Shown here piece after piece: positions 567 to 61,187 of a stretch of 61,187 nucleotides of DNA (position 1 is its first letter; every line of letters starts with the position of its first letter). This stretch comes from Candidatus Omnitrophota bacterium. GTDB lineage: Bacteria; Omnitrophota; Gorgyraeia; Tantalellales; Tantalellaceae. The position numbers and the translations under genes are program-made. Where the stretch lies: positions 1-61,187 of the forward strand of contig JBDRBY010000046.1 in assembly GCA_043822245.1 (NCBI GenBank). The letters run 5' to 3'. The notes below the pieces were generated by a model, which saw only the letters and a program-made list of their open reading frames with translations, was not told where the DNA came from and did not search any database.

Positions 567-676
567 TAATTCGGGGGACACAATACTTAATTTTGGTGCG
601 AGAAAGAATAACTAATTAAGTATTGTGTCCCCCGAATTACATAAGTATTGTGTCCCCCGAATTACACCCCGAATTA
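567..676. repeat. long palindrome (CGGGGGACA..TTAATT family) plus extra half-copies
   Basis: The 26-bp arms 567-592 (TAATTCGGGGGACACAATACTTAATT) and 614-639 are exact reverse complements. Partial extra arms lie at 642-664 and 667-676. A related palindrome is at 9420-9494. Confidence 0.85.
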
Positions 677-711
677 CACCAGCTTATTCATAACATCCGG
701 CAGATGGGATT

Positions 712-18168: not shown

Positions 18169-18251
18169 GAAGAGAGTGTGATATTGTCAAGGTTGGAATT
18201 CGATAGTGTCAAAAATAACATGAAAGAATTATGAAAGAAAGAGTGAAGTAG

Positions 18252-18460
18252 TTTCCCTTCTCTTTTTTGAAAAAAGGGCAGATCTTTTCCACCCTTTTGA
18301 AAAAGCGTCAGAACTTTTCTTCTTTGAAAAAGCGTCAGAACTTTTCGTCTTTGAAAAAGCGTCAGAACTTTCCTTCTTTGAAAAAGCGTCAGAACTTTTC
18401 TTCTTTGAAAAAGCGTCAGAACTTTCCCCCCTTTGAAAAAGGGGGCCAGGGGGATTTAAT
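18252..18460 (+). repeat. FEKG-type element: 27-bp tandem array plus (+) cap
   Basis: About 5 copies of TTTGAAAAAGCGTCAGAACTTTTCTTC plus 2 degenerate units. Ends in CCCCCCTTTGAAAAAGGGGGCCAGGGGGATTTAAT. Confidence 0.9.
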
Positions 18461-18534
18461 ACAAGATGAACTGTAAAATGAATCTGAAATCAAATGCATA
18501 TCGATTGTGGAGAGAAATGACAAAATCCCCCTAA
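18461..18534 (+). pseudogene. DUF559 5' remnant fused to a (-) cap
   Basis: The mini-ORF 18466-18534 reads MNCKMNLKSNAYRLWREMTKSP*. Compare the intact DUF559 N-terminus MLNYKPNLKSKAQQLRKEMTDS: 12 of 20 aligned residues match with a one-codon gap. It has the same ACA[AC]GATG junction after the (+) cap and the same TCCCCCTAA stop inside the (-) cap. Confidence 0.6.
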
Positions 18535-18553
18535 CCCCCTTTTCCAAAGGGGG
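18523..18553 (-). repeat. (-) cap of FEKG-type element
   Basis: AAAATCCCCCTAACCCCCTTTTCCAAAGGGGG is the reverse complement of the (+) cap consensus. Confidence 0.85.
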
Positions 18554-18666
18554 AATTTTAAGGGGGAGGGAAGTTAATATTAGATAACTGCTTTAGATGC
18601 AAAGGATTAAGAAAAATTTGGATACAAACTTTTGACAATACCTTGGAAAGGAGTGGGAGGTAAAGA

Positions 18667-22209: not shown

Positions 22210-22220
22210 GGAATGAAAAA

Positions 22221-22243
22221 TTTAAAATGCAAAATGTAAAATT
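22221..22243. repeat. AT-rich 23-mer TTTAAAATGCAAAATGTAAAATT
   Basis: An identical 23-mer lies at 36393-36415. Confidence 0.85.
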
Positions 22244-22279
22244 ATAAAAGTAAAATTGTAATTTAAAAGGGAGAATTTT

Positions 22280-24697: not shown

Positions 24698-25090
24698 ATG
24701 AAAAAGAATTATGAAGGGCTTCAGGAAAATGTCAGGAAGTTAAAATTTCCTAAAATAGATGTTTGGGAGAATAAGTATCAGGACAGAAGGTATGTGGTGA
24801 AGTTTGATACGTCTGAGTTTACGTGCATATGCCCTAAGACGGGCCTTCCGGATTTCGCGCGTATTTTTATAGAATATTCTCCCCGCGAATGGTGCATTGA
24901 ATTAAAATCGTTCAAAGAGTATATAGTTTCTTACAGAGACCGCGGAATGTTTCACGAGCATGTTGTTAACCGAATGATTCAGGATCTCGCGGAAGCCTGC
25001 CTGCCTTTTTGGATAAACATAAGGGGGGTTTTTAACACGCGCGGTGGGATTACGACGACTGTGGAGGCGGGGATAGGGGATAGGGGATAG
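24698..25090 (+). CDS. queF: NADPH-dependent 7-cyano-7-deazaguanine reductase (YkvM type)
   Basis: EFTCICPKTGLPDFA and EHVVNRM (QueF motif region); 130 aa. Confidence 0.9.
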   Translation: MKKNYEGLQENVRKLKFPKIDVWENKYQDRRYVVKFDTSEFTCICPKTGLPDFARIFIEYSPREWCIELKSFKEYIVSYRDRGMFHEHVVNRMIQDLAEACLPFWINIRGVFNTRGGITTTVEAGIGDRG

Positions 25091-25096
25091 GGAATA
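25069..25096. repeat. 4 x 7-bp tandem GGGGATA
   Basis: GGGGATA GGGGATA GGGGATA GGGAATA spans the queF stop (25088-25090) and ends 2 nt before GTG 25099. Confidence 0.85.
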
Positions 25097-25098
25097 GG

Positions 25099-25986
25099 GT
25101 GAAGATAAAAACTCGGAGATATTACATATATTACGCGTCAAAAATTTTGTTCTTTGCGATAAGTTTAATTCCGCGTAAAATAAGCCTTGTTATCGCGGAT
25201 TTCTTAGGCAGAAAAGCTTTCTCGTTGCTTCCAAAATATCGAGATATAACAATATCGAATTTGAATGAGGCGTTTGGCGGTGATCATGAAAAAAATTTAC
25301 GCATGGCAAGGGATGTTTTTCGCGGCCTCGCGAAAAGCGGCGCTGATTGGATAAAATTAATGTCTCTTGGCAAAAAAGGCGCTCTTCGGCTTGTAAGCGA
25401 ATGTCAGGGGCTGGAATATCTGGATAAGACTTTAGGAAACGAGAGAGGCGCGATTCTTCTTGCTTCTCATTTTGGCAATTGGGAACTTTTGTCCGCGTAT
25501 CTTTCAACAAGAGGATACAAAGGCGCAATAATAGTAAGAAGGCTGTACTTTTATAAGTATGACAATTTTATAGTAAGGCTGAGGCGGAAGTTCGGTGTGC
25601 AGGTTGTATATCGAGATGAATCACCGAAAAAATTATTAAAAGTGCTTAAAAAAGGCGAAATGTTGGGGATTTTGGCGGATCAGGATGTTGACAGTACAAG
25701 CGGTGTATTTGTGAATTTTTTTGGGAAGAGCGCGTACACGCCCACGGCGCCGGTAAAATTCGCTATGGCCGCGAGAGTAGATATAGTACCGGCTTTCATG
25801 ATACGTAAGCCGGATGATTCTTATAAGTTGGTAGTAGAAAAACCGATTACCCTGTTACCGGAGAAAGATAAGGCAGAGAGTGTGCGAAAGTATACTCAGC
25901 TTTGGACAGATATTCTTGAGAAATATGTGAGGCAATATCCTGAGCAATGGGTATGGTTGCATAGAAGGTGGAAGACTGAGAAATAA
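25099..25986 (+). CDS. lipid A (Kdo2-lipid IVA) late acyltransferase, LpxL/HtrB family (GTG start)
   Basis: N-terminal TM segment. LLASHFGNWELLS is the HtrB-family H(x4)E-type motif region, plus ILADQD. 295 aa in LPS gene context. Confidence 0.75.
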   Translation: MKIKTRRYYIYYASKILFFAISLIPRKISLVIADFLGRKAFSLLPKYRDITISNLNEAFGGDHEKNLRMARDVFRGLAKSGADWIKLMSLGKKGALRLVSECQGLEYLDKTLGNERGAILLASHFGNWELLSAYLSTRGYKGAIIVRRLYFYKYDNFIVRLRRKFGVQVVYRDESPKKLLKVLKKGEMLGILADQDVDSTSGVFVNFFGKSAYTPTAPVKFAMAARVDIVPAFMIRKPDDSYKLVVEKPITLLPEKDKAESVRKYTQLWTDILEKYVRQYPEQWVWLHRRWKTEK

Positions 25987-30194: not shown

Positions 30195-30240
30195 CACGCA
30201 GTGATATACGCTAAGGTAGTATCAAAGGAAGCAAAAAAAA

Positions 30241-30443
30241 GGATACAAAATTGTTTCCCCCCTTTGAAAAAGGGGGAAAAAGGTAAGTTTCTTTATCGTT
30301 TCCACTTTGTGAAAAAGGGGGAAAAAGGTAAGTTTCTTTATCGTTTCCACTTTGTGAAAAAGGGCGCAAAATTGTTTACTTCTTTTGAAAAAGGATACAA
30401 AATTGTTTCCCCCCTTTGAAAAAGGGGGATAGGGGGATTTAAC
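30241..30443 (+). repeat. FEKG-type element: mixed 31/45-bp units plus (+) cap
   Basis: GGATACAAAATTGTTTCCCCCCTTTGAAAAA units at both ends. Two 45-bp units (period 30271 to 30316). Ends in GGGGGATAGGGGGATTTAAC. Confidence 0.9.
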
Positions 30444-30482
30444 GCGCGAGCCGTCACGAAGAAAAAACAGCCAACATCGAAA

Positions 30483-30569
30483 GAGGGCTACGGAGTGGAC
30501 ATAGAAGCAAATTTTGCGGATATAAGTTCAGAAATGAAAATGATTTGTAAGGTGGTGGAGAGAAAATAA
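30483..30569 (+). pseudogene. DUF559 3' remnant between (+) and (-) caps
   Basis: 30519-30566 matches the 3' end of the intact DUF559 gene at about 35 of 48 nt by eye. Translation ADISSEMKMICKVVERK* compares with RDTDSVMEVIYKVVEGKIKSP*. It is joined to the (-) cap in the same way. Confidence 0.6.
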
Positions 30570-30650
30570 ATCCCCCTAGCCCCCTTTTTCAAAGGGGGGA
30601 AAAGATAAGCCTTTTTTCAAAAGGGGGAGAAAGATAAGCTTTTTCAAGGG
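30568..30650 (-). repeat. (-) cap plus 2 array units
   Basis: AAATCCCCCTAGCCCCCTTTTTCAAAGGGGGG AAAAGATAAGCCTTTTTTCAAAAGGGGGAG AAAGATAAGCTTTTTCAAGGG. Confidence 0.85.
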
Positions 30651-30702
30651 ACATTTAACGAAAACTTTTGATAGTATCACGCTAATCAGAGGAGGGACAT
30701 TG

Positions 30703-33486: not shown

Positions 33487-33524
33487 TTCTCCCTTTGAAA
33501 AAGGGAGTTTAAGAGGGATTTAAC
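33487..33524 (+). repeat. variant (+) cap
   Basis: TTCTCCCTTTGAAAAAGGGAGTTTAAGAGGGATTTAAC. A (-) cap follows 12 nt later. Confidence 0.8.
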
Positions 33525-33536
33525 GGGTATTTAAAC

Positions 33537-33706
33537 AAAAATCCCCCTAACCCCCTTTTTCAAAGGGGGGAGCAACGAAGCCCTTTTTCAAAGGGGGGAG
33601 CAACGAAGCCCTTTTTCAAAGGGGGGAGCAACGAAGCCCTTTTTCAAAGGGGGGAGCAACGAAGTCCTTTTTCAAAGGGGGGAGCAACGAAGTCCTTTTT
33701 TTCAGG
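33537..33706 (-). repeat. (-) cap plus 28-bp tandem array
   Basis: AAAAATCCCCCTAACCCC, then 5 copies of CTTTTTCAAAGGGGGGAGCAACGAAG[CT]C plus a degenerate unit. Confidence 0.9.
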
Positions 33707-35068: not shown

Positions 35069-36511
<1,443 letters not shown>

Positions 36512-41068: not shown

Positions 41069-42112
41069 ATGAAACGTAGAAACACACGAACAATTACGGT
41101 AGGCAAATTAAAAATCGGGTCAAAACATCCTGTGAGCATCCAGTCTATGCTGAAGACGGATATTTCCGATATTTGTTCCGCGATTGCCGAAGCGCGCGCG
41201 TTGGAAGAGGCCGGATGCGAACTTATACGCGTGGCAGTTAAAGAAAAAAAAATACTTGAAACTTTGCCCGTTCTTAAGCAAAACATAAATATTCCTATCT
41301 GCGCGGATATACATTTCGATTATAAACTTGCCGTTGAAGCGATAGAGCGGGGCGCGGACAAGATAAGAATAAACCCGGGCAATATTAAAAAACCGAAAGA
41401 AATTCGCGCGATAATTGATTGCGCGAAAGAAAATAAAATACCGATAAGGATAGGGATAAACTCAGGGTCCACCGGCAGTACCAAGAGCAGTGGTATGGTA
41501 AAGTCGCTCCTGGAATATCTAGCCCATTTTGAACGCGAAAATTTTCATAACATCATTATCTCTATCAAATCTTCCGACGTAAAAACAACTGTTGACGCGT
41601 ATAGAAAAATGGCGTTAAGATGCGATTATCCCTTTCATCTCGGCCTTACCTCTACCGGGCCGGTTTCTCGAGGAAAAGTGAAATCGAGCATATGTATAGG
41701 TGCTCTTTTGTTGGACGGGATAGGCGATACTATAAGGGTTTCTTTAACCGCGGGATCAAAAGAAGAGGTAGCTTCGGCCAAGGATATACTCAGCGCGTTG
41801 GATATTAGAAACTTCGGCCCTAAGATAATATCCTGCCCCACATGTGGCAGATGCCAAGTTAATTTAGTTTCAATTGTCAATGAATTATCGGATATCCTCC
41901 AACGATCAACGGCCAACGGCCAACGGCCAACGACTATAGCAGTTATGGGATGCGAAGTTAACGGCCCCGGTGAGGCGAAACACGCGGATATAGGGATAGC
42001 CTTTGGCAAAGGCAAAGGCGCGATATTCCGCGAAGGTAAGATAATAAAGACAGTAAAAGCAATCGACGCGGTAAAAGAAATAATGTCGGAAATTAAAAAT
42101 TTTTCATTTTAG
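41069..42112 (+). CDS. ispG: 4-hydroxy-3-methylbut-2-en-1-yl diphosphate synthase
   Basis: VSIQSM, RINPGN and the C-terminal CPTCGRC....MGCEVNGPGE cluster motif; 347 aa. Confidence 0.95.
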   Translation: MKRRNTRTITVGKLKIGSKHPVSIQSMLKTDISDICSAIAEARALEEAGCELIRVAVKEKKILETLPVLKQNINIPICADIHFDYKLAVEAIERGADKIRINPGNIKKPKEIRAIIDCAKENKIPIRIGINSGSTGSTKSSGMVKSLLEYLAHFERENFHNIIISIKSSDVKTTVDAYRKMALRCDYPFHLGLTSTGPVSRGKVKSSICIGALLLDGIGDTIRVSLTAGSKEEVASAKDILSALDIRNFGPKIISCPTCGRCQVNLVSIVNELSDILQRSTANGQRPTTIAVMGCEVNGPGEAKHADIGIAFGKGKGAIFREGKIIKTVKAIDAVKEIMSEIKNFSF

Positions 42113-48772: not shown

Positions 48773-49549
48773 ATGTCCTACAAAGTAAAACTTAACATTT
48801 TTGAGGGGCCGTTAGATCTTCTGCTGTTTCTTATCAAAAAAGAAAAAATTGATATTTATGATATTCCTATCGCTTCGGTTACTGATCAGTATTTGGAATA
48901 TATGAATTTGATAAAACTCCTGGATTTGGATATTGCCGGTGAATTTCTTGTAATGGCCGCGACTTTGATACATATAAAAAGCAAAATGCTTCTGCCTCAG
49001 GACGAAGTTGTTGAGGAAGAAGAAGAGCGGGATCCCAGGGAAGAGCTTATCGAGAGGCTCCTCGAATATAAGAAATATAAGGACGCGGCTGAAAAATTAA
49101 AGGATTTGAAGGAAAGAAATAAAGATATATTTTTCAGGCAGGTTCCCCCTGATAAAACTTCGATAATAGCCGAAGACGGAACAGAGTATTTTCAGGCGAG
49201 TTTGTTTGAACTCATTACCGCTTTCAAAGGGGTACTTAAGAAAGTTCAAAAAAAATCTGTTCATAGAGTCACGAAAAATAGATTTACTGTTGAGGATAAG
49301 ATTCACGCGGTGTATCATATTTTCGCGAAGCAGGAAAAAATTTATTTTTTATCGTTATTTCAGCAAGCTGAAGATAAAGATGAGGCAATAGTTATATTCC
49401 TGGCGGTATTAGAGCTCATAAAAAGGAGAGAAGTGCTTATCGCCCAAAAAGGCCTTTTTGAAGAAATTGAAATTATTAGAAATCCGGAATTGGTCCATAG
49501 TCTGGCGTATAGCGTTAGCGAGGAAAGGAACCCCGTTTCCCCCCTTTGA
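48773..49549 (+). CDS. scpA: segregation and condensation protein A
   Basis: FEGPLDLLLFLIKKEKIDIYDIPIA..TDQYL is the ScpA signature N-terminus. The last ~9 codons and stop lie in the repeat array. Confidence 0.9.
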   Translation: MSYKVKLNIFEGPLDLLLFLIKKEKIDIYDIPIASVTDQYLEYMNLIKLLDLDIAGEFLVMAATLIHIKSKMLLPQDEVVEEEEERDPREELIERLLEYKKYKDAAEKLKDLKERNKDIFFRQVPPDKTSIIAEDGTEYFQASLFELITAFKGVLKKVQKKSVHRVTKNRFTVEDKIHAVYHIFAKQEKIYFLSLFQQAEDKDEAIVIFLAVLELIKRREVLIAQKGLFEEIEIIRNPELVHSLAYSVSEERNPVSPL

Positions 49550-49693
49550 AAAAGGAAAGGACCCTGTTCCCCCCTTTGAAAAAGGAAAGGACCCTGTTCC
49601 CCCCTTTGAAAAAGGAAAGGACCCTGTTCCCCCCTTTGAAAAAGGAAAGGACCCTGTTCCCCCCTTTGAAAAAGGGGGCTAGGGGGATTTAAT
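49522..49693 (+). repeat. FEKG-type element: 30-bp tandem array (5 units) plus (+) cap
   Basis: GGAAAGGACCCTGTTCCCCCCTTTGAAAAA x4 plus one variant. Ends in GGGGGCTAGGGGGATTTAAT. Confidence 0.9.
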
Positions 49694-49781
49694 CCAAGCA
49701 TCCCCCATCGCTTCGCGAATCAAAGTGCCGGGGGCGGCAAAGCAGTTTTATTAATAGTCAAAATATTAACACGGTGCCCAT

Positions 49782-50330
49782 ATGCAAAACGTAGACAAAA
49801 TAAAAAACATAATTGAAGCTCTTCTTATTATCTCAGAGGACGGATTAAGCGCCGAAGATTTTAAAAAAGCGGTGCCTGATTCCGATATCAGCGACATTGA
49901 GGAAGGGATTCATCTTTTAAAAAATGAGTACGCCCTTCCCGCGCGGGCGTTTAATCTCGCGGAAATAGCCGGAAAGTATCGAATAGTGACTAAACCGGAA
50001 TATATGCCGTGGATAGATAACCTGTATCAAAAAGAAAAAGACAGATTAACCCTACCTGCTTTAGAAACCCTGGCTATTATCGCTTATAATCAGTCTATCA
50101 CACGTGCTGAGATTGAAAATGTCAGGGGAGTTAATTCAGGGGGGGTGATTAAGACGATTTTAGAAAAAGAACTTATCGAGATAAAAGGCAGAAGAGACAT
50201 AGCGGGACGGCCTCTTATGTATGGAGTTACTGAAAAATTTTTGAAAATATTCGGACTAAATTCCCTAAGTGACCTGCCGTCATTGAAGGATTTTAAAGAG
50301 GACGAATTGGAATTTGTAGCGGGGGGTTAA
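49782..50330 (+). CDS. scpB: segregation and condensation protein B
   Basis: IIEALL.ISE..L, LETLAIIAY.QSITRAEIE.VRGV and GRP..YGVT..FL..FGL; 182 aa. Confidence 0.9.
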   Translation: MQNVDKIKNIIEALLIISEDGLSAEDFKKAVPDSDISDIEEGIHLLKNEYALPARAFNLAEIAGKYRIVTKPEYMPWIDNLYQKEKDRLTLPALETLAIIAYNQSITRAEIENVRGVNSGGVIKTILEKELIEIKGRRDIAGRPLMYGVTEKFLKIFGLNSLSDLPSLKDFKEDELEFVAGG

Positions 50331-50344
50331 TGGTTTACGCGTTC

Positions 50345-50443
50345 AAAAATCCCCCTAGCCCCCTTTTTCAAAGGGGGGACAAAATTGAAAGAGGAAAGGA
50401 ACCCGTTCCCCCCTTTGGAAAAAGGGGGCTAGGGGGATTTAAT
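50345..50443. repeat. complete FEKG-type element: (-) cap, one unit, (+) cap
   Basis: AAAAATCCCCCTAGCCCCCTTTTTCAAAGGGGGG ... GGAAAGGAACCCGTTCCCCCCTTTGGAAAAAGGGGGCTAGGGGGATTTAAT, with ~32-bp terminal inverted repeats. Confidence 0.9.
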
Positions 50444-50492
50444 AAAGACAGCCAAAGTTCCCCCACAACCGCGGTTTAAACAGGAGCTAAGA

Positions 50493-51566
50493 ATGGATTC
50501 AAAAAAAATAACCAATTTCAGAAAAGAAATCAATAAACTGGATTCTCTTATAACTGACTTGATTAATAAAAGGGGCAAGGTTAGCCTTAACATTGGTGAA
50601 CTCAAAAAAAGTAAAAACCAGCCGGTTTACAGACCTGAGAGGGAAAGCCAGGTTTACAACCAGGTTACTAGAAAAAATCAGGGGCCTTTAACCGATGAAT
50701 CCATAAGGGCGGTATACCGTGAAATTATGTCAGCATGCCTTTCTTTGGAACACCCCCTAACGATCGCGTTTTTAGGCCCTGAACTTACTTTCACACAGCA
50801 GGCCGCTTTAAAAAAATTCGGTTCAAGTGTAAACTATCTTGCCTGCGATAATATTCCTGAAGTTTTTAGCGAAGTAGAAAAGGAAAATGCCGAGTATGGA
50901 GTAGTGCCTATAGAAAATTCTACCGAAGGTGCGGTTAACCACACTATGGATGTGTTTGTCGATTCTCCGCTTATGATTTGTTCTGAAATTTATTATCCAA
51001 TCAAGCACAGCCTGCTGAGCAAAAACAAAACTCTAAAATCCATTAAAAAGGTTTATTCCAATCCGCATGTTTTTGGGCAGTGCCGCTGGTGGCTTGAAAA
51101 GAATTTACCTTTCGCGGAGCTTTGTGACGTTGCCTCAACCGTTAAGGCGGCCGAGATAGTGTCCAAGATTTCAGATTCAGCCTGTATAGCGAGTGAACTC
51201 GCGGCAAAAAAATATCTGCTCAAGGTTTTGGCCAGGTCAATAGAAGATTCGCCTATCAATGAAACCCGGTTTCTTGTTGTGGGAAAACAAATGAGTAAAA
51301 TTTCAGGCAGGGACAAGACTTCTATACTTTTTTCAGTGAAGGACAAACCTGGAATCCTGCATGATGTACTGAGCCCTTTTAAAAAAGGTGGCATTAACCT
51401 GACAAAAATCGAATCCAGGCCGCTAAAAAAGAAAGCCTGGAAATATTACTTTTTTATCGATATGGAAGGGCACTATGAAACGCCCAAAATTAAAAAAGCG
51501 TTAAGTCAATTAGAAAAGAAATGTTATTTCCTAAAAATTTTGGGATCATATCCTAACGGAAGATAG
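50493..51566 (+). CDS. pheA: bifunctional chorismate mutase / prephenate dehydratase (P-protein)
   Basis: N-terminal CM (LRKEINKLDSLI..LINKR), PDT (IAFLGPELTFTQQAA; VPIENSTEGAV; TRFLVV) and ACT (TSILFSVKDKPGILHDVL). Confidence 0.9.
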   Translation: MDSKKITNFRKEINKLDSLITDLINKRGKVSLNIGELKKSKNQPVYRPERESQVYNQVTRKNQGPLTDESIRAVYREIMSACLSLEHPLTIAFLGPELTFTQQAALKKFGSSVNYLACDNIPEVFSEVEKENAEYGVVPIENSTEGAVNHTMDVFVDSPLMICSEIYYPIKHSLLSKNKTLKSIKKVYSNPHVFGQCRWWLEKNLPFAELCDVASTVKAAEIVSKISDSACIASELAAKKYLLKVLARSIEDSPINETRFLVVGKQMSKISGRDKTSILFSVKDKPGILHDVLSPFKKGGINLTKIESRPLKKKAWKYYFFIDMEGHYETPKIKKALSQLEKKCYFLKILGSYPNGR

Positions 51567-51575
51567 AAGTTAGAA

Positions 51576-51630
51576 GAAAAAGGAAGGAACCCATTCCCCC
51601 CTTTGAAAAAGGGGGCTAGGGGGATTTAAT
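51576..51630 (+). repeat. FEKG-type element: one unit plus (+) cap
   Basis: GAAAAAGGAAGGAACCCATTCCCCCCTTTGAAAAAGGGGGCTAGGGGGATTTAAT. An unrelated 9-bp-stem hairpin GACACATTT..AAATGTGTC follows at 51631-51661. Confidence 0.9.
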
Positions 51631-51763
51631 GACACATTTAAGGTATTACCTCAAATGTGTCAGAATGAAAAATTAAAAAACACAATTAAAAATCTAAAAA
51701 TTGATTTTTAATTTTAAATTGTAACTTTACATTTTTCATTTTTAATTGTACATTTACAAAACC

Positions 51764-52852
51764 ATGTGCAAAAAACATCTAAACAACATAAAACCGTACA
51801 AGCAGGGTAAACCCATTGAAGAAGTAAAACGCGAACTTGGGCTTAAAAAGGTTATAAAACTCGCTTCAAATGAAAGCCCCCGCCCTCCTTCAAAAAAAAC
51901 AATAGAGGCGATTAAGAAGCAGGCCGCGTCAGTAAACCGATACCCGGATGGGGGGTGTTTTTATCTCAGAGAGGCTTTGAGCAAGAAACTCTCTATTCCT
52001 GGAGACAATATTGTTTTTGGAAACGGGTCTGATGAGATTATTATCTTAGCGCTTCAAGCCTTCGTTAAGCCCGGTGACGAAGTTATTACGGCAAATCCCA
52101 CGTTTCTTGTTTACGGCATAGCCTCTATGGTAAAAGGCGCGCGGGTCCGCGAAGTTCCCCTGAAAAATTACAAATACGATCTTGAAGCCATGCTTAAGGC
52201 TGTTACCCGAAGGACCAGGGTTGTATTTATTGCCAATCCCGATAATCCCACAGGGACATATGTGACAAAAAAAGAATTGGATTTGTTTTTAAAAAATGTT
52301 CCGCGGGATATACTCGTTTTTATTGATGAAGCATATTATGAATTCGCGAGGGGCGGCGATTATCCTGAAACTTTGAGCCTGATTAAAACAGGAAACCGTA
52401 ACATTATAATCGCGAGGACTTTTTCTAAAGCCTACGGCCTTGCCGGATTAAGAATCGGCTACGGCCTCGCGGGGAAAGATATAGCTGATATCCTAAACAA
52501 GGTGAGAGAACCGTTTAATGTGAATTCTCTCGCGCAGACAGCGGCAATCGCGGCTCTGAGTGACGATTCTTACATGGAAGAGACGATAAAATTTATCAAG
52601 GAAGAAAAGGAAAAATATTGCGGTGTATTTAAATCATTAAACGTGGGATATCTTCCAAGTAAAGCTAATTTCATTCTTATAAACACAAAAAGGGATTCAA
52701 AAGAAATTTTTAACCGTCTCCTCGCGAAAGGAATTATCGTGCGGGAAATGTCGGAGTGGGGGCTCGATGGATTTATAAGAGTAACCATAGGCCTCCCGGA
52801 TGAGAATAAAGCGTTTTTTAAGGCGTTTAGAGAGATTGTTGCCAAAGTGTGA
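51764..52852 (+). CDS. hisC: histidinol-phosphate / aromatic aminotransferase (class II)
   Basis: LASNESP, GNGSDE, PDNPTG and FSKAYGLAGLRIGY (PLP lysine). ATG 51764 is preferred over TTG 51746. Confidence 0.85.
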   Translation: MCKKHLNNIKPYKQGKPIEEVKRELGLKKVIKLASNESPRPPSKKTIEAIKKQAASVNRYPDGGCFYLREALSKKLSIPGDNIVFGNGSDEIIILALQAFVKPGDEVITANPTFLVYGIASMVKGARVREVPLKNYKYDLEAMLKAVTRRTRVVFIANPDNPTGTYVTKKELDLFLKNVPRDILVFIDEAYYEFARGGDYPETLSLIKTGNRNIIIARTFSKAYGLAGLRIGYGLAGKDIADILNKVREPFNVNSLAQTAAIAALSDDSYMEETIKFIKEEKEKYCGVFKSLNVGYLPSKANFILINTKRDSKEIFNRLLAKGIIVREMSEWGLDGFIRVTIGLPDENKAFFKAFREIVAKV

Positions 52853-52854
52853 GG

Positions 52855-53130
52855 AAAAAATCCCCCTAACCCCCTTTTTCAAAGGGGGGACAGAATTGAA
52901 AAAGGAGTGGAAACATTTCCCTTCCACTCTTTGAAAAAGGAGTGGAAACATTTCACTTTTACCATTTGAAAAAGGAGTGTAAACATTTTCCTTCCACTCT
53001 TTGAAAAAGGAGTGTAAACATTTTCCTTCCACTCTTTGAAAAAGGAGTGTAAACATTTTCCTTCCACTCTTTGAAAAAGGAGTGTAAACATTTCCCCCCT
53101 TTGAAAAAGGGGGGCGAGGGGGGATTTAAC
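52855..53130. repeat. complete FEKG-type element, 35-bp units x6
   Basis: (-) cap, ACAGAATTGAAAAA, GGAGTG[GT]AAACATTT..CCACTCTTTGAAAAA units, then (+) cap CCCCCCTTTGAAAAAGGGGGGCGAGGGGGGATTTAAC. Confidence 0.9.
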
Positions 53131-53135
53131 ACACG

Positions 53136-53504
53136 ATGTTAAATTACAAACCAAACTTAAAATCAAAGGCTCAGCAATTACGAAAAGAAATGACCGACAG
53201 TGAAAGAAAACTATGGTCAAGATTGAGAGGAAAGCAAATTTTAGATGTTCAATTTTACCGGCAGAAGCCCATTGGAAATTATGTCGTGGATTTTTACGCG
53301 TCCAAAGTGAAAATAGTGGTTGAAGTGGATGGATCTGGGCACATGGAGGAAGGGCAGGCGCTAAAGGATGCACCACGAGATGAATATTTAAAACGTCAGG
53401 GATTAGATGTGTTACGTTTTGATAATTTGCAGGTTTTGCGGGATACGGATTCGGTAATGGAAGTGATTTATAAGGTGGTGGAAGGGAAGATTAAATCCCC
53501 CTAA
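53136..53504 (+). CDS. DUF559 (Vsr-like / PD-(D/E)XK-type) endonuclease domain protein
   Basis: LRKEMTDSERKLWSRLRGKQILDVQFYRQKPIGNYVVDFYASKVKIVVEVDGSGH....D..RDEYLKRQGLDVLRFDN matches the DUF559 pattern (LR.nmT.aE..LW..LR....kFrRQ.piG.YivDFyc...klviElDG..H). 122 aa. Confidence 0.9.
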   Translation: MLNYKPNLKSKAQQLRKEMTDSERKLWSRLRGKQILDVQFYRQKPIGNYVVDFYASKVKIVVEVDGSGHMEEGQALKDAPRDEYLKRQGLDVLRFDNLQVLRDTDSVMEVIYKVVEGKIKSP

Positions 53505-53660
53505 CCCCCTTTTTCAAAGGGGGGACAGAATTGAAAAAGGAGTGGAAACATTTCACTTTTACCATTTGAAAAAGGAGTGTAAACATTTTCCTTCCACTCT
53601 TTGAAAAAGGAGTGTAAACATTTCCCCCCTTTGAAAAAGGGGGGCGAGGGGGGATTTAAC
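53491..53660. repeat. complete FEKG-type element, 35-bp units x3 (paralogue of 52855-53130)
   Basis: Same caps, same linker and same unit types as the left copy. Its first 14 nt encode the last 4 codons and stop of DUF559. Confidence 0.9.
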
Positions 53661-53697
53661 TCCCCCCTCCCTAAAAAAAAACAACACAGGAGAAATT

Positions 53698-54714
53698 ATG
53701 ATTATCGTTCTGAAATCTTCCGCTACTAAAAAACAGATAAGCCACATTATAGAAAAGATAGAAAAACTGGGGCTTAAGCCATGGTTGTCCTGTGGCGTGG
53801 AACGTTCAATTATCGGCGTAATTGGAGAAGAACAGGTTGTAAGGACTCTGCCGCTTGAGGGATTCCCAGGGGTAGAAAAGGTTATGACAATTCTTAAGCC
53901 GTACAAACTGGCGTCTCTTGATTATAAAAGCACTCCCAGTGAAATAAAAATAGCAGATGGCGTGACTATTGGCGGCAAAAAAATAGTTGTCATGGCCGGC
54001 CCGTGTTCTGTTGAGAACAGAGCGATGCTGATGGAAACGGCCGAAGAAGTAAAAAAATCCGGAGCTGTATTTTTAAGAGGCGGCGCGTTTAAGCCAAGAA
54101 CAAGCCCGTATAGTTTTCAAGGTCTGGGGGAGGAAGGCCTGAAATATTTGAGGGAAGCCGGAAAAAAAACAGGCCTTCTTGTTGTGACGGAACTAATGGA
54201 TATTCGTATGCTTGGAATGATGGTTAAATACGCGGACATCATACAGGTAGGCGCGCGTAATATGCAAAATTTTGATCTTTTAAAAGAACTCGGCAAGATA
54301 AGAAAACCCGTGCTTTTAAAAAGAGGAATAGCCAACACTATAAATGAATTTCTTATGAGCGCTGAATACATTCTCGCGGGCGGGAACGACAACGTGATTT
54401 TGTGTGAACGTGGCATCCGGACCTTTGAAACTTTTACCAGATTCACGCTTGATTTAAACGCTGTCGCCGCCATAAAAAGTTTAAGCCATCTTCCTATTAT
54501 CGTTGATCCGTCTCATGGGACAGGCAGGTGGAATTTAGTGCTTCCGGCGGCCTTAGCCGCGGTTGCTTCCGGTGCCGACGGGCTTATGATAGAGGTCCAT
54601 CCTAATCCGGAAGAAGCGTTTTCCGACGGGGATCAATCGTTGCTCCCGGCTAAGTTCGCGAAACTGATGGAAGGCGTAAAAACCGTCGCGAAAGCAGTTG
54701 GGAGGACAGTTTAA
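53698..54714 (+). CDS. aroF: 3-deoxy-7-phosphoheptulonate (DAHP) synthase, type I-beta with N-terminal regulatory domain
   Basis: MIIVLK...I..I..KI...G (ferredoxin-like N-domain), then [41 protein letters not shown] and DPSHG motifs. 338 aa. Confidence 0.9.
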
Positions 54715-54850
54715 TAATCCCCCTAACCCCCTTTTTCAAAGGGGGGAAAGAACTGAGATAAAGAGGAAAGGGCGAGAAGTTTCCCCACTTTGAAAAAGGA
54801 AATGGACCCGTTTCCACCCTTTGAAAAAGGGTGGCTAGGGGGGATTTAAT
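54715..54850. repeat. complete FEKG-type element: (-) cap, 2-3 units, (+) cap
   Basis: TAATAATCCCCCTAACCCCCTTTTTCAAAGGGGGG ... GGAAATGGACCCGTTTCCACCCTTTGAAAAAGGGTGGCTAGGGGGGATTTAAT. Confidence 0.9.
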
Positions 54851-54884
54851 TCAACCAATAGGAATTAAACTTAGAGGACAAGAT

Positions 54885-55736
54885 ATGAAAAAAATAGTTG
54901 TTATTGGCATGGGGCTTATTGGAGGGTCCATTGGCAAGGCTGTTATAAAAAGATCTCCGGTCAGAGAAGTGATTGGGGTTTGCCGCAGCCAGTCTTCATT
55001 GGAGAGGGCTGTTAAAGAAAAAGCCTTGACTAAAGGATATGTAAACGATTACGAAAAAGCTTTCCGTGGCGCGGAACTTATTGTTATCGCGGTTCCTTTT
55101 CACAAGATACAAAATATATTAGAAGAGATATCCGGAATAATCACGGACAAAACGACCGTTGTTACAGATGTGGGCAGCGCGAAAAAAACCATAGTTAAAT
55201 ATGCCGCTCGTTTCAAAAATCAGTTTTCTTTTGTGGGCGCTCATCCGCTCGCGGGTTCGGAAAAAACAGGCGTGGAAAATTCCGACGCGGATCTTTTTCA
55301 AGGTGCGTCGTGCGTGTTAACGCGCGCTTCGGCGACAGTAGAAAAAGACCTTAAGGAAGTCCGTGTTTTTTGGGAGAGTATTGGGGCAAAGGTAAGCATT
55401 GAAACACCGGATAAGCATGACGAGATAGTGGCTTTTACAAGCCACCTGCCTCACGCGGTCGCTTACGCTTTAACCGGAACAGGCGTCAAAAAGAAAGAAT
55501 GGGTTAAATACATCTCAAGCGGGTTTAGAGATACAACACGCGTGGCGTCTTCAGATCCGGCGCTATGGAGCAATATCTTTTTGAACAATAAAGGCCATTT
55601 ATTAAAAGCTGTCAATGAATTTAAAAAAATACTTTCCGGCATAGAAAAAGATATACTTTCTGAAAAAAAAGACGCTCTTGAAAATAGGTTTAAGACGTAT
55701 AAGGAGAAGAGGGATGACATCTTTCAAAAACGCTAA
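54885..55736 (+). CDS. tyrA: prephenate dehydrogenase
   Basis: KIVVIGMGLIGGSIG NAD fold plus GAHPLAGSEKTG and SHLPH. ATG 54885 is preferred because ORF start 54831 lies inside the repeat cap. Confidence 0.85.
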   Translation: MKKIVVIGMGLIGGSIGKAVIKRSPVREVIGVCRSQSSLERAVKEKALTKGYVNDYEKAFRGAELIVIAVPFHKIQNILEEISGIITDKTTVVTDVGSAKKTIVKYAARFKNQFSFVGAHPLAGSEKTGVENSDADLFQGASCVLTRASATVEKDLKEVRVFWESIGAKVSIETPDKHDEIVAFTSHLPHAVAYALTGTGVKKKEWVKYISSGFRDTTRVASSDPALWSNIFLNNKGHLLKAVNEFKKILSGIEKDILSEKKDALENRFKTYKEKRDDIFQKR

Positions 55737-60729: not shown

Positions 60730-61187
60730 AAACTGGAGAGTTTGATCCTGGCTCAGAACGAACGCTGGCGGCGTGGATTAGGCATGCAAGTCGAACGATC
60801 CCTTTCTTTGAGGGGGATAGTGGCAAACGGGTGAGTAACGCGTGAGTAATTTACCTTTGGGTTTGGAACAACCTGTCGAAAGGCAGGCTAATACCGGATA
60901 AGACCACAATTCCTAAGGAATTGCGGTTAAAGGTGGGGATCCTGAAAATGGACCTATCGCCCATTGATGAGCTCGCGTCCTATCAGCTTGTTGGTGAGGT
61001 AAAAGCTTACCAAGGCGATGACGGGTAGCTGGTCTGAGAGGATGGTCAGCCACACTGGGACTGAGACACTGCCCAGACTCCTACGGGAGGCTGCAGTCGA
61101 GAATCTTTTGCAATGCCCGAAAGGGTGACAATGCGACGCCGCGTGAGCGATGAAGGCCTTCGGGTTGTAAAGCTCTGTCAGCTCGGA
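60730..61187 (+). rRNA. rrs: 16S ribosomal RNA, 5' ~460 nt (truncated by window edge)
   Basis: AGAGTTTGATCCTGGCTCAG (27F site) at 60737-60756, ...GGCGGCGTGGATTAGGCATGCAAGTCGAACG, and ACTCCTACGGGAGGCTGCAGTCGAGAATCTTTTGCAATG (the 341-360 region). Confidence 0.97.

What the first reader, a model, noticed from the sequence alone, without database searches (positions are those of the whole stretch)
18441..18553. Decayed 5' fragment of a DUF559 gene between a (+) cap and a (-) cap
A 62-nt spacer lies between the (+) cap ending at 18460 and the (-) cap starting at 18523. It begins ACAAGATG, where the intact gene's junction is ACACGATG. It reads MNCKMNLKSNAYRLWREMT-KSP*, against the intact DUF559 N-terminus MLNYKPNLKSKAQQLRKEMTDS. 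That is 12 of 20 aligned residues identical with a one-codon gap. The frame runs into the same TCC CCC TAA stop inside the (-) cap. So a second locus once held a DUF559 copy in the same cap-gene-cap arrangement, and roughly 300 nt of it have since been deleted. This is how MITE-like derivatives arise from autonomous elements.
Basis: seen in the sequence. Interest (0 to 1): 0.75.

Follow-up and report, generated by a model that had tools for sequence, protein, structure and literature searches.

The report
Dead DUF559 nuclease gene remnant
The 62 bases between two facing hairpin repeats are the worn-down start of a small nuclease gene (DUF559), and they belong to a repeat-plus-nuclease mobile DNA family found in many bacterial phyla that I could not find described.

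Summary
Window 18466-18534 reads MNCKMNLKSNAYRLWREMTKSP*, starts 6 nt after a (+) cap and stops at the TAA inside a (-) cap.

- **Homology.** A DNA profile built only from DUF559 genes of other genomes (caps excluded) hits 18467-18523 at E 1.4e-5, at profile positions 5-61. The only other hit in 61 kb is the intact gene at 53136-53504.
- **Deletion series.** The window also holds a 3' fragment (30443-30566) and a near-empty cap pair (33.5 kb). A sister Omnitrophota genome has a 131-nt internally deleted copy.
- **Family.** The cap-DUF559-cap layout recurs in Omnitrophota, Cellvibrio, Thalassocella and other genomes. The 29-nt cap pattern occurs in at least ten phyla.
- **Insertions.** The closest relatives keep gene order but have no caps, so the cap-bearing DNA compared (48.8-54.9 kb, including the intact copy) is inserted. 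This locus could not be compared. Related elements have 13-bp outer inverted ends and 7-9 bp target duplications.

The locus is a dead deletion derivative of a mobile cassette. Whether DUF559 drives the mobility (homing-like or RAYT-like) or is cargo of a MITE remains inferred. I found no literature on this association.

The parts
18202..18214 (.). Left outer inverted end of the composite element (GATAGTGTCAAAA)
   Evidence: It is the reverse complement of the right end at 18630-18642. The same ends bound the 30.4 kb element and L081.
18296..18441 (+). Tandem array of 5.4 units of 27 nt (TTTGAAAAAGCGTCAGAACTTTTCTTC) that runs into the (+) cap
   Evidence: Tandem Repeats Finder gives 93% matches and score 248. 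Arrays with the same TTTGAAAAAG core adjoin caps at five other places in the window.
18426..18460 (+). (+) cap: hairpin CCCCCC-TTTGAAAAA-GGGGG, then CCA-GGGGG-ATTTAA
   Evidence: The cap core has 28 matches in the window against 0.02 expected.
18466..18522 (+). Remnant of the first 19 codons of a DUF559 gene (MNCKMNLKSNAYRLWREMT)
   Evidence: nhmmer E 1.4e-5 at profile positions 5-61. Protein HMM rank 2 of 2755 segments. Family-invariant positions L2, Y4 and R16 are replaced.
18523..18553 (-). (-) cap, which also supplies the codons K-S-P and the stop (TAA 18532-18534) of the remnant ORF
   Evidence: The two caps fold into one long stem as DNA: -29.1 kcal/mol, z -5.1.
18630..18642 (.). Right outer inverted end (TTTTGACAATACC)
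   Evidence: The flanking 8-mers TTGGAATT and TTGGAAAG match at only 6 of 8 positions, so a target duplication here is not established.
53136..53504 (+). Intact DUF559 gene (122 aa) between the (+) cap 53094-53129 and the (-) cap 53493-53524
   Evidence: Pfam PF04480 E 5.9e-36. All 30 family-invariant residues are present. Closest solved structure is 3HRL at E 4.8e-19.
52858..53129 (.). Left repeat block X: (-) cap, then about six 35-nt units, then (+) cap
53491..53659 (.). Right repeat block X, a shorter copy of the left block that shares its rare unit variants
   Evidence: Alignment A2.
30443..30566 (+). Second decayed copy: the 3' end of a DUF559 gene (...SSEMKMICKVVERK*) between the (+) cap around 30411-30442 and the (-) cap around 30566-30597
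   Evidence: 40/50 nt to positions 305-353 of the window's gene stretch (53131-53490), z 11.5-12.2; 0 of 2962 genomic windows do as well.
30208..30685 (.). Whole 30.4 kb composite element: outer ends GGTAGTATCAAAG (30215-30227) and TTTTGATAGTATC (30666-30678), flanked flush by the 7-bp direct repeat ACGCTAA (30208-30214 and 30679-30685)
33488..33570 (.). Convergent cap pair with only about 16 nt between the caps (empty form), followed by a 28-nt array at 33553-33700
   Evidence: The spacer has no recognisable gene remnant.

Best explanation
**What it is.** Window 18466-18522 is the dead 5' stub (19 codons) of a DUF559 (Vsr-like PD-(D/E)XK nuclease) gene. The gene once sat between a (+) cap and a (-) cap, and about 300 internal bases have been lost. 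The stub lies inside a composite of about 440 bp (18202-18642), made of outer inverted end, tandem units, cap, stub, cap and outer inverted end. I read this composite as a non-autonomous relic of a mobile cassette. It sits between a response-regulator gene and the heptose-7-phosphate kinase gene. The stub keeps none of the nuclease core, so it has no enzymatic function.

**Shown.**
- The stub is homologous to DUF559 genes.
- The cap-DUF559-cap layout recurs across phyla.
- Copies occur at several loci per genome, with a series of deletions.
- The cap-bearing DNA at 48.8-54.9 kb, which includes the intact copy, is absent from the closest relatives that keep the same gene order.
- Related copies carry 7-9 bp target duplications.

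**Inferred mechanism (about 40% likely).** The DUF559 nuclease recognises the nearly palindromic cap DNA. By nicking or cutting at cap sites it provokes recombinational repair that copies the gene, with its caps, into other cap sites. This is homing-like. Copies then decay by internal deletion, leaving cap-spacer-cap hairpins such as this one. Alternatively, a transposase supplied in trans moves the whole TIR-bounded composite.
For: **Homology of the stub.**

**Same architecture elsewhere.**
- Found in L001, L002, L007, L096, L133, L079 and L006.
- DUF559 is the only recurrent ORF family next to caps; about 13 of 104 cap loci have it.
- At least 53 of the 120 closest homologs have ORF calls that run into cap-encoded peptide.

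**Deletion series.** Convergent cap pairs have spacers of 13, 23-33, 41, 67, 102-129, 242, 266, 291 and 364-381 nt. L081 is a 131-nt internal deletion of a gene that is otherwise nearly identical in the aligned parts to two intact copies in the same genome.

**Insertion.**
- L129 (88% aa identity in DAHP synthase) and L130 (80%) keep the order TrpS-ScpA-ScpB-PheA-aminotransferase-DAHP synthase-PDH, but have no cap in 10-11 kb.
- In L129 the aminotransferase and DAHP synthase genes overlap by 4 nt. The window has 845 nt there, holding X-DUF559-X.

**Transposition marks.** Flush direct repeats flank the outer ends: GGAGAATTA in L081 and ACGCTAA at window 30208 and 30679.

**Nuclease family.** Pfam DUF559 E 5.9e-36. 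A profile of the subfamily hits PDB 3HRL at E 3e-25. It also hits 3R3P, the nuclease domain of the homing endonuclease I-Bth0305I, at E 6.7e-4 (PMC3239194).

**Horizontal spread.** The 29-nt cap pattern matches exactly in more than 104 stretches from at least ten phyla. Homologs with names from Omnitrophota, Deltaproteobacteria and Betaproteobacteria are 62-74% identical.
Against: - No empty allele of this particular locus was found. Relatives lack synteny, or their contig ends 151 nt upstream of the kinase gene. The intact ancestor here is therefore inferred.
- The target duplication at this locus matches at only 6 of 8 positions.
- There is no biochemical evidence that DUF559 cuts caps.
- A PD-(D/E)XK nuclease alone is not known to make 8-bp target duplications. 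That points to a transposase supplied in trans, at least for the TIR-bounded form.
- The relatives lack caps altogether, so a cap-only empty site, which homing predicts, was not observed.
- Caps far outnumber DUF559 genes. Some cap-rich genomes (Myxococcota MO_167.B37) show cap pairs whose spacers are unrelated to the gene.
Confidence: 0.75

Rival explanations
1. DUF559 is only cargo. The composite is a MITE with ends GGTAGTGTCAAAA...TTTTGACAATACC and 7-9 bp target duplications. A DDE transposase encoded elsewhere in the genome moves it. The caps, arrays and DUF559 gene are passengers or later inserts, and the stub is decayed cargo.
For: - Outer inverted ends with flush direct repeats occur in L081 and at window 30.4 kb.
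- Target duplications of this size are typical of DDE transposition (general knowledge of IS elements).
- The three MAG020 copies share the arrays and flanks, not only the gene.
Against: - Cap-DUF559-cap occurs without these outer ends: in Cellvibrio and Thalassocella and at the window's intact copy.
- No longer element with the same ends and a transposase gene was seen in about 800 kb of loci.
- DUF559 is the only recurrent ORF beside caps across phyla.
Confidence: 0.3
2. The system is REP/RAYT-like. DUF559 is a host-retained nuclease that acts in trans to spread or maintain the caps (REP/BIME-like repeats). It is flanked by caps for the same reason that RAYT genes are flanked by REPs. Surplus gene copies then decay.
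For: - The caps are short palindromic intergenic repeats in high copy (28 in 61 kb).
- They form mosaic clusters like BIMEs (Cellvibrio L079).
- The nuclease gene lies between inverted caps.
Against: - DUF559 is multi-copy with recent near-identical copies at different loci and decayed copies. RAYTs are typically single-copy and vertically inherited (PMC5581495 abstract).
- Close relatives lack both the caps and the gene.
- The nuclease fold and chemistry differ from HUH Y1 enzymes.
Confidence: 0.15
3. There was no internal deletion. A (-) cap, or a cap-bearing element, inserted into a full-length DUF559 gene at codon 20, and the rest of the gene was displaced or lost separately.
For: Caps are abundant and inserted at many sites in this genome. 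In the window's ScpA gene a repeat unit now supplies the stop codon.
Against: - No DUF559 sequence lies downstream of the (-) cap or anywhere else nearby.
- The right arm from the (-) cap to the outer end has normal length (77 nt against 64 nt in L081), so the missing part is internal.
- L081 shows a clean internal deletion in a sister genome.
Confidence: 0.07
4. The resemblance is chance. An A-rich 62-nt spacer happens to look like the DUF559 N-terminus.
For: Against the window's own gene alone, the nucleotide local score is matched by 1.3% of random genomic windows.
Against: - nhmmer E 1.4e-5 with an independent profile, aligned at the correct end of the gene.
- 0 of 5000 protein shuffles reach the score.
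- z 9.5 against L007.
- The start codon sits at the same offset from the cap as in the intact gene.
Confidence: 0.02

Closest known systems
REP / BIME repeats with their RAYT (TnpA-REP) nuclease; REPINs
   Same: - Short GC-stem palindromic repeats in intergenic DNA, in high copy.
- They occur singly, as inverted doublets and in mosaic clusters.
- A small nuclease gene sits between repeats in inverted orientation.
   Different: - The nuclease is a Vsr-like PD-(D/E)XK protein (DUF559), not a HUH Y1 transposase.
- There is no GTAG or CGTC head on the repeat.
- The gene is multi-copy and decays.
- Close relatives lack the whole system.
- The same 29-nt repeat is shared by many phyla, whereas REP families are lineage specific.
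Vsr-like (EDxHD) homing endonucleases: I-Bth0305I and the free-standing genes in 'fractured genes' (PMC3239194, PMC2677866)
   Same: - Related nuclease domain: the subfamily profile hits 3R3P at E 6.7e-4.
- A selfish, free-standing small nuclease gene.
- I-Bth0305I is a homodimer with a pseudopalindromic core target, which would suit a cap pair.
- Degenerate copies are expected from the homing cycle.
   Different: - Those genes sit in introns, inteins or phage genes and target one conserved host gene.
- Here the putative target is a dispersed repeat in bacterial chromosomes.
- No cap matches were found in 2.9 million viral contigs.
- DUF559 here is a single domain of about 120 aa with no extra DNA-binding domain.
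- Cleavage has not been shown.
MITEs derived from IS elements by internal deletion
   Same: Inverted ends, target duplications in sister copies, internal deletion of the only ORF, small size (about 290-490 bp), and intergenic location.
   Different: - The short forms are not amplified as uniform families.
- The only ORF of the long form is a 119-122 aa nuclease, not a known transposase.
- The element carries internal tandem hairpin arrays.
Vsr and Vsr-like repair nucleases (E. coli Vsr; Caulobacter VsrA, a DUF559 protein, PMC12907096)
   Same: The same fold and Pfam clan. The linker between the two G-runs of the cap reads mostly C-Y-A-G-G, which is the Dcm/Vsr sequence context.
   Different: - No cytosine methyltransferase gene is next to the copy whose neighbours were checked; the called genes around L001, L002 and L133 show no such family either.
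- These copies are multi-copy, repeat-flanked and decaying.
- A repair role has not been shown.

Membership tests
DUF559 (Pfam PF04480), Vsr-like PD-(D/E)XK nuclease | Significant match to the family profile | tested here: met
   Intact copy 53136-53504: E 5.9e-36 over profile positions 3-108 of 109. Stub 18466-18522: matches only the N-terminal 20 positions.
DUF559 (Pfam PF04480), Vsr-like PD-(D/E)XK nuclease | Nuclease core with the invariant D52, E63, D65, H69, D78, R81, D82 and R94 | tested here: not met
   For the stub, the ORF ends after residue 19 of the family sequence, so none of the core is present. The intact copy keeps all of these residues.
MITE (internal-deletion derivative of a TIR transposon) | Terminal inverted repeats | tested here: met
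   Outer ends 18202-18214 and 18630-18642, plus the convergent caps.
MITE (internal-deletion derivative of a TIR transposon) | Target site duplication | tested here: inconclusive
   At this locus only 6 of 8 positions match (TTGGAATT against TTGGAAAG). Sister elements are perfect: ACGCTAA (7 bp) at window 30.4 kb and GGAGAATTA (8-9 bp) in L081.
MITE (internal-deletion derivative of a TIR transposon) | A longer parent element that encodes the transposase | not testable with these tools
   The long form encodes only DUF559. No transposase activity is known for this family, and no DDE gene with the same ends was seen in the loci held.
MITE (internal-deletion derivative of a TIR transposon) | Amplification of the short form into many near-identical copies | tested here: not met
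   The short copies in the window (18.4, 30.4 and 33.5 kb) differ in array unit, spacer and length.
REP/RAYT (REPIN) system | Abundant short extragenic palindromes | tested here: met
   28 cap cores in 61 kb against 0.02 expected. In 188 of 304 cases at least 5 base pairs close the TTTGAAAAA loop, against 1 of 302 in the control, with some compensatory stem variants.
REP/RAYT (REPIN) system | The associated nuclease is a HUH Y1 transposase, single-copy per genome | tested here: not met
   The protein is DUF559. One genome has three copies, and the window has one intact copy plus two remnants.
Homing endonuclease gene | Nuclease related to a proven homing endonuclease | tested here: met
   The subfamily profile hits 3R3P (I-Bth0305I) at E 6.7e-4.
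Homing endonuclease gene | The gene interrupts its own recognition site, and an empty, cleavable allele exists | tested here: inconclusive
   Cap pairs with short spacers exist. However, the orthologous sites in relatives lack caps entirely, and cleavage cannot be tested here.
Very short patch repair (Vsr) | Genetic linkage to a C5-cytosine methyltransferase gene | tested here: not met
   The neighbours of the intact copy are an aminotransferase and DAHP synthase. The called genes around L001, L002 and L133 show no methyltransferase family.

The most novel reading that the evidence does not exclude
The DUF559 nucleases of this subfamily are the mobilising or homing enzymes of a family of REP-like palindromic 'cap' elements spread over many bacterial phyla. 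This would be a second, independent repeat-nuclease partnership beside REP/RAYT, built on a Vsr-like PD-(D/E)XK fold. The roughly 0.6-kb cap-DUF559-cap cassette would then be one of the smallest self-propagating DNA elements known. The enzyme may act on the C-Y-A-G-G motif or on mismatches formed in cap hairpins.
Probability: 0.3. Interest if true: 0.85.

Novelty: new variant of a known kind. Interest (0 to 1): 0.6.

Why it matters
- **Function of DUF559.** DUF559 is a very large protein family with almost no assigned function; 25 papers in the library mention it, and none link it to repeats or mobility. A consistent tie between one DUF559 subfamily and a conserved 29-32 nt palindromic repeat gives a concrete hypothesis: the cap is its DNA substrate.
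- **A testable system.** Caps occur in cultured strains (Cellvibrio sp. NN19, Lysobacter antibioticus 13-6, Acinetobacter bouvetii), so the hypothesis can be tested at the bench.
- **Broader parallel.** If DUF559 drives cap spread, this parallels the REP/RAYT story with a different enzyme. It would explain repeat-rich intergenic DNA in Omnitrophota and other uncultured phyla.
- **Practical points.**
  - These cassettes may break metagenome assemblies, since many homologs sit on contigs under 1.5 kb.
  - They are inserted at the boundaries between operon genes, and repeat units can supply the upstream gene's stop codon, as in ScpA.
  - They create spurious ORF extensions such as ...PPFEKGGxGD....
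- **The stub itself.** It has no function. Its value is as a dated fossil of one insertion.

Tried and rejected
1. **Orthologous-site comparison for the 18.4 kb locus.**
   - Exact-protein look-ups of the window's kinase and DAHP synthase found nothing.
   - Metagenome relatives of the kinase (72% identity or less) have a thioredoxin gene upstream and no caps.
   - The closest relative's contig ends 151 nt upstream of the kinase gene and shows no caps.
   - So there is neither an intact ancestor nor an empty site for this locus.
2. **Known RNA families.** Rfam at gathering thresholds finds only the 16S rRNA start. At E up to 1 it gives only sub-threshold hairpin look-alikes such as miRNA precursors.
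3. **Caps as sigma-70 promoters or terminators.** The consensus scan does not flag caps as promoters. Only minus-strand hairpin-plus-T-run matches appear in array units, and counts are close to those in shuffles.
4. **Vehicles.** The cap pattern is absent from viral contigs. Cap-gene-cap has no blastn match in plasmids.
5. **Literature.** No paper contains the cap sequence. None links DUF559 to repeats.
6. **Gene remnants in short spacers.** The L081 41-nt spacer matches the 3' end of the gene at 13 of 15 positions but is not significant (132 of 2000 shuffles do as well). The window 33.5 kb spacer and a Myxococcota 26-nt spacer show no signal.
7. **Orientation of caps relative to flanking genes.** No bias was seen, because the pattern matches both cap types.
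8. **A longer autonomous element with the same outer ends.** None was found in the loci held.
9. **The left-end-like motif at 33179.** It lies inside a coding gene and is a chance match.
Full report
**1. The observation**

The sequence is as described.
- A (+) cap, CCCCCC-TTTGAAAAA-GGGGG-CCA-GGGGG-ATTTAA, spans 18426-18459.
- It is followed by T-ACAAG and an ATG at 18466.
- The ORF reads MNCKMNLKSNAYRLWREMTKSP* and stops at the TAA at 18532-18534, inside a (-) cap (18523-18553).
- The intact DUF559 gene (53136-53504, 122 aa, Pfam PF04480 E 5.9e-36) has the same layout. A cap ends at 53129, ACACG follows, then the ATG, and its last codons K-S-P-stop lie in the (-) cap.

**2. Is it more than chance?**

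- At the protein level the local BLOSUM62 score is 50. Shuffles give mean 18 and maximum 43, and 0 of 5000 reach 50.
- A protein HMM built from the 120 best homologs ranks the segment second of 2755 six-frame segments (E 0.058, HMM positions 3-22).
- Against the window's own gene the nucleotide match is unimpressive: 1.3% of random genomic windows do as well.
- Against DUF559 genes of other genomes it is strong: L007 39/50 with z 9.5, and L002 32/41 with z 7.4.
- The cleanest test is a DNA profile made only from five genes of other genomes, with the caps trimmed off and the window's gene left out. It hits 18467-18523 at E 1.4e-5, aligned to profile positions 5-61. Besides the intact gene, nothing else in 61 kb scores below E 0.5.
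- The stub has lost family-invariant residues (L2, Y4, R16), as expected for a dead copy.

**3.

- In the window, 30443-30566 lies between a (+) and a (-) cap and holds the 3' end of a DUF559 gene (...SSEMKMICKVVERK*). It matches the window's gene at 40/50 nt, z about 12, and 0 of 2962 genomic windows do as well.
- At 33.5 kb a cap pair has only about 16 nt between the caps.
- Across all loci fetched, convergent cap pairs have spacers of 13, 23-33, 41, 67 (this one), 102-129, 242, 266, 291 and 364-381 nt.
- The 242-nt case (L081) comes from the Omnitrophota genome MAG020. It is a clean 131-nt internal deletion of a gene that is otherwise nearly identical in the aligned parts to two intact copies at other loci of the same genome (L001, L133).
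- L033 is 5'-truncated. L091 is matched in two different reading frames, which I read as a frameshift.
- Spacers of 41 nt or less show no significant gene remnant. Deletion cannot be claimed as the origin of all cap pairs.

**4. What the family is**

- The window is from a Candidatus Omnitrophota genome, judging from the names of the closest DAHP synthase and heptose kinase homologs.
- The cap core occurs 28 times in the window, against 0.02 expected. It is found at ten intergenic sites among housekeeping genes.
- Caps occur singly, as convergent pairs and as divergent doublets. I call a divergent doublet X: a (-) cap, then tandem units, then a (+) cap.
- Tandem arrays of 27-35 nt units that share TTTGAAAAAG adjoin many caps.
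- The hairpin is real. In 188 of 304 TTTGAAAAA loops at least 5 Watson-Crick pairs close the loop, against 1 of 302 in a shifted control. A few compensatory stem variants occur (CCCTCCC/GGGAGGG, CCACCC/GGGTGG).
- The two caps around the stub fold into one long stem as DNA (-29.1 kcal/mol, z -5.1).
They come from Omnitrophota, Myxococcota, Gammaproteobacteria (Cellvibrio, Thalassocella, Lysobacter, Acinetobacter, Methylococcaceae), Gallionella, Desulfobacterota, Nitrospirales, Nitrospinota, Elusimicrobia, Bacteroidota, Ignavibacteria/Kapaibacteria, Clostridia-labelled MAGs and Patescibacteria.
- DUF559 is the only recurrent ORF family beside caps. About 13 of 104 cap loci carry it, almost always directly between a (+) and a (-) cap.
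- At least 53 of the 120 closest homologs have ORF calls that read into cap-encoded peptide, such as ...PPFEKGGxGD... or ...KSPxPPFxKG....
- Many homologs sit on very short contigs. That would fit assemblies breaking at repeats.
- In the window, in L002 and in Cellvibrio L079 the gene is flanked on both sides by copies of the same X block.

**5. Evidence that this is inserted, mobile DNA**

- Two relatives keep the gene order TrpS-ScpA-ScpB-PheA-aminotransferase-DAHP synthase-PDH-Cmk. They are L129 (88% aa identity in DAHP synthase) and L130 (80%). Neither has a single cap in 10-11 kb.
- In L129 the aminotransferase and DAHP synthase genes overlap by 4 nt. The window has 845 nt there, containing X-DUF559-X.
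- ScpA and ScpB abut in L129. In the window about 230 nt of array plus cap lie between them, and ScpA now ends at the TGA of the first TTTGAAAAA unit.
- In this lineage the repeated unit is larger than cap-gene-cap. The three MAG020 copies share the upstream array and the flanks.
- Outside the caps lie 13-bp inverted ends, GGTAGTGTCAAAA ... TTTTGACAATACC. They are found at:
  - window 18202 and 18630;
  - window 30215 and 30666;
  - L081 4426 and 4903;
  - single ends in L001, L073, L033, L051, L014 and L097.
- Flush direct repeats flank these ends: GGAGAATTA (8-9 bp) in L081 and ACGCTAA (7 bp) at 30208-30214 and 30679-30685. At the 18.4 kb locus only 6 of 8 positions match.
- I read these repeats as target site duplications.
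- The cap pattern is absent from 2.9 million viral contigs, and cap-gene-cap has no match in plasmids.

**6. How it most likely works**

Shown:
- the stub is a DUF559 remnant;
- it lies in a composite relic of about 440 bp (18202-18642);
- the family is multi-copy, inserted and decaying.

Inferred:
- DUF559 is a Vsr-like PD-(D/E)XK nuclease. The closest solved structure is 3HRL (E 3e-25).
- The next hit of the subfamily profile is 3R3P (E 6.7e-4). This is the nuclease domain of the homing endonuclease I-Bth0305I, a homodimer with a pseudopalindromic core target (PMC3239194).
- Free-standing Vsr-like homing genes are known (PMC2677866).
- A Caulobacter DUF559 protein (VsrA) causes DNA damage when its motif is unmethylated (PMC12907096).
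- The best-fitting model is that DUF559 recognises the nearly palindromic caps. Nicks or breaks at caps then promote copying of the gene with its caps into other cap sites, after which copies decay by deletion. I give this about 40%.
- The 7-9 bp duplications and outer ends argue that, at least in Omnitrophota, the whole composite is also moved by a conventional transposase in trans. In that MITE model DUF559 could be mere cargo (about 30%).
- A RAYT-like host-retained role is less likely (about 15%). The gene is multi-copy and absent from close relatives.

**7. Comparison with known systems and novelty**

- The system works like REP/BIME plus RAYT in layout, and like a homing endonuclease gene in its life cycle.
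- It is not a member of REP/RAYT (wrong nuclease, no GTAG or CGTC head, multi-copy).
- It is not a proven homing element (no empty cleavable site seen).
- It is not a typical MITE family (short forms are not amplified, no transposase identified).
- I found no paper that describes the cap or links DUF559 to repeats, and no Rfam family matches it.
- I rate the stub itself as ordinary: a fossil of a selfish gene. I rate the system it reveals as a new variant of a known kind.

**8. Verdict**

It is unproven on autonomy and incomplete on the element's real boundaries.
- Interest is 0.6, mainly for the cross-phylum cap-DUF559 partnership, which can be tested in cultured Cellvibrio or Lysobacter.

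Noticed in passing
window 30443-30566 (element 30208-30685): A second decayed DUF559 copy that keeps the 3' end of the gene. It is closest to the window's own intact gene. It lies inside a 464-bp element with 13-bp outer inverted ends and a perfect 7-bp flanking direct repeat, ACGCTAA.
   Followed up: yes
window 18202-18214 and 18630-18642; L081 4426-4438 and 4903-4915; single ends in L001, L073, L033, L051, L014, L097: Outward-facing TTTTGACA(A/C)TAC motifs in inverted orientation bound the cap/array/DUF559 composites in Omnitrophota-type genomes. L081 has an 8-9 bp flush direct repeat, GGAGAATTA. No transposase with these ends was found. A second left-end-like sequence (GATATTGTCAAGG, about 18180-18192) lies 10 nt upstream of the first.
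   Followed up: partly
window 48773-54900 compared with L129 and L130: The closest relatives keep the aro/scp gene order but have no caps. Genes that abut or overlap in L129 are separated in the window by 116-845 nt of cap DNA. Each relative instead has its own unrelated intergenic repeats at some of the same junctions, for example CATCCATTAAGGGGTC in L129 and TTAACCGGCAAACCGG in L130.
   Followed up: partly
window 49522-49549: The ScpA ORF now runs about 9 codons into the 30-nt repeat array and stops at the TGA of the first TTTGAAAAA unit (...YSVSEERNPVSPL*, against ...YSVSG* in L129). The DUF559 gene and its stub likewise take their stop codon from the (-) cap.
   Followed up: partly
window 52858-53129 and 53491-53659; L002 2908-2992 and 3374-3457; L079 4690-4780 and 5163-5240: In three phyla DUF559 is flanked on both sides by copies of the same divergent cap doublet (X-gene-X). 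In the window the two X blocks share rare unit variants. This fits integration next to, or duplication of, a pre-existing X.
   Followed up: partly
L079 4100-4790 (Cellvibrio): Four tandem 177-nt composite units, each made of three cap variants in a BIME-like mosaic, lie directly upstream of DUF559. In the variant cap CTCCCTCCC-TTTGAAAAA-GGGAGGG-CCG-GGGAGGG-ATTT the stem and the second G-run change together.
   Followed up: no
all caps, e.g. window 18441-18453: The linker between the two G-runs is mostly TTA (66), CTA (45) or CCA (12) of 199. The site therefore reads C/T-Y-A-G-G, the Dcm/Vsr sequence context (CCWGG and its deamination product CTWGG). This may be coincidence or a clue to the nuclease's substrate.
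   Followed up: partly
window 53337-53339 (codon 68 of the intact DUF559): The nearly invariant Q68 of the subfamily (...EVDGSQH...) is G in the window's intact copy. All 30 fully invariant residues are kept.
   Followed up: no
window 54831-54888: The mechanical ORF for the prephenate dehydrogenase gene starts at GTG 54831, inside or next to the cap. Comparison with L129 suggests the real start is the ATG at about 54886 (ATGAAAAAAATAGTT).
   Followed up: no
window 49555-49664 and 52905-52929 (minus strand): On the minus strand the array units form hairpins followed by T-runs (terminator-like), that is, antisense to the operon genes. Counts are only slightly above those in shuffles.
   Followed up: no
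window 60730-61187: The 5' 445 nt of a bacterial 16S rRNA gene run off the end of the window (Rfam RF00177, 398 bits).
   Followed up: no
window 617-680, 22212-22269, 25069-25099, 36384-36414, 41899-41932: Other small tandem repeats unrelated to the caps: a 25-nt unit twice, AATGTAA heptamers at two sites, GGGGATA 4.4 times, and CCAACGG 4.9 times.
   Followed up: no
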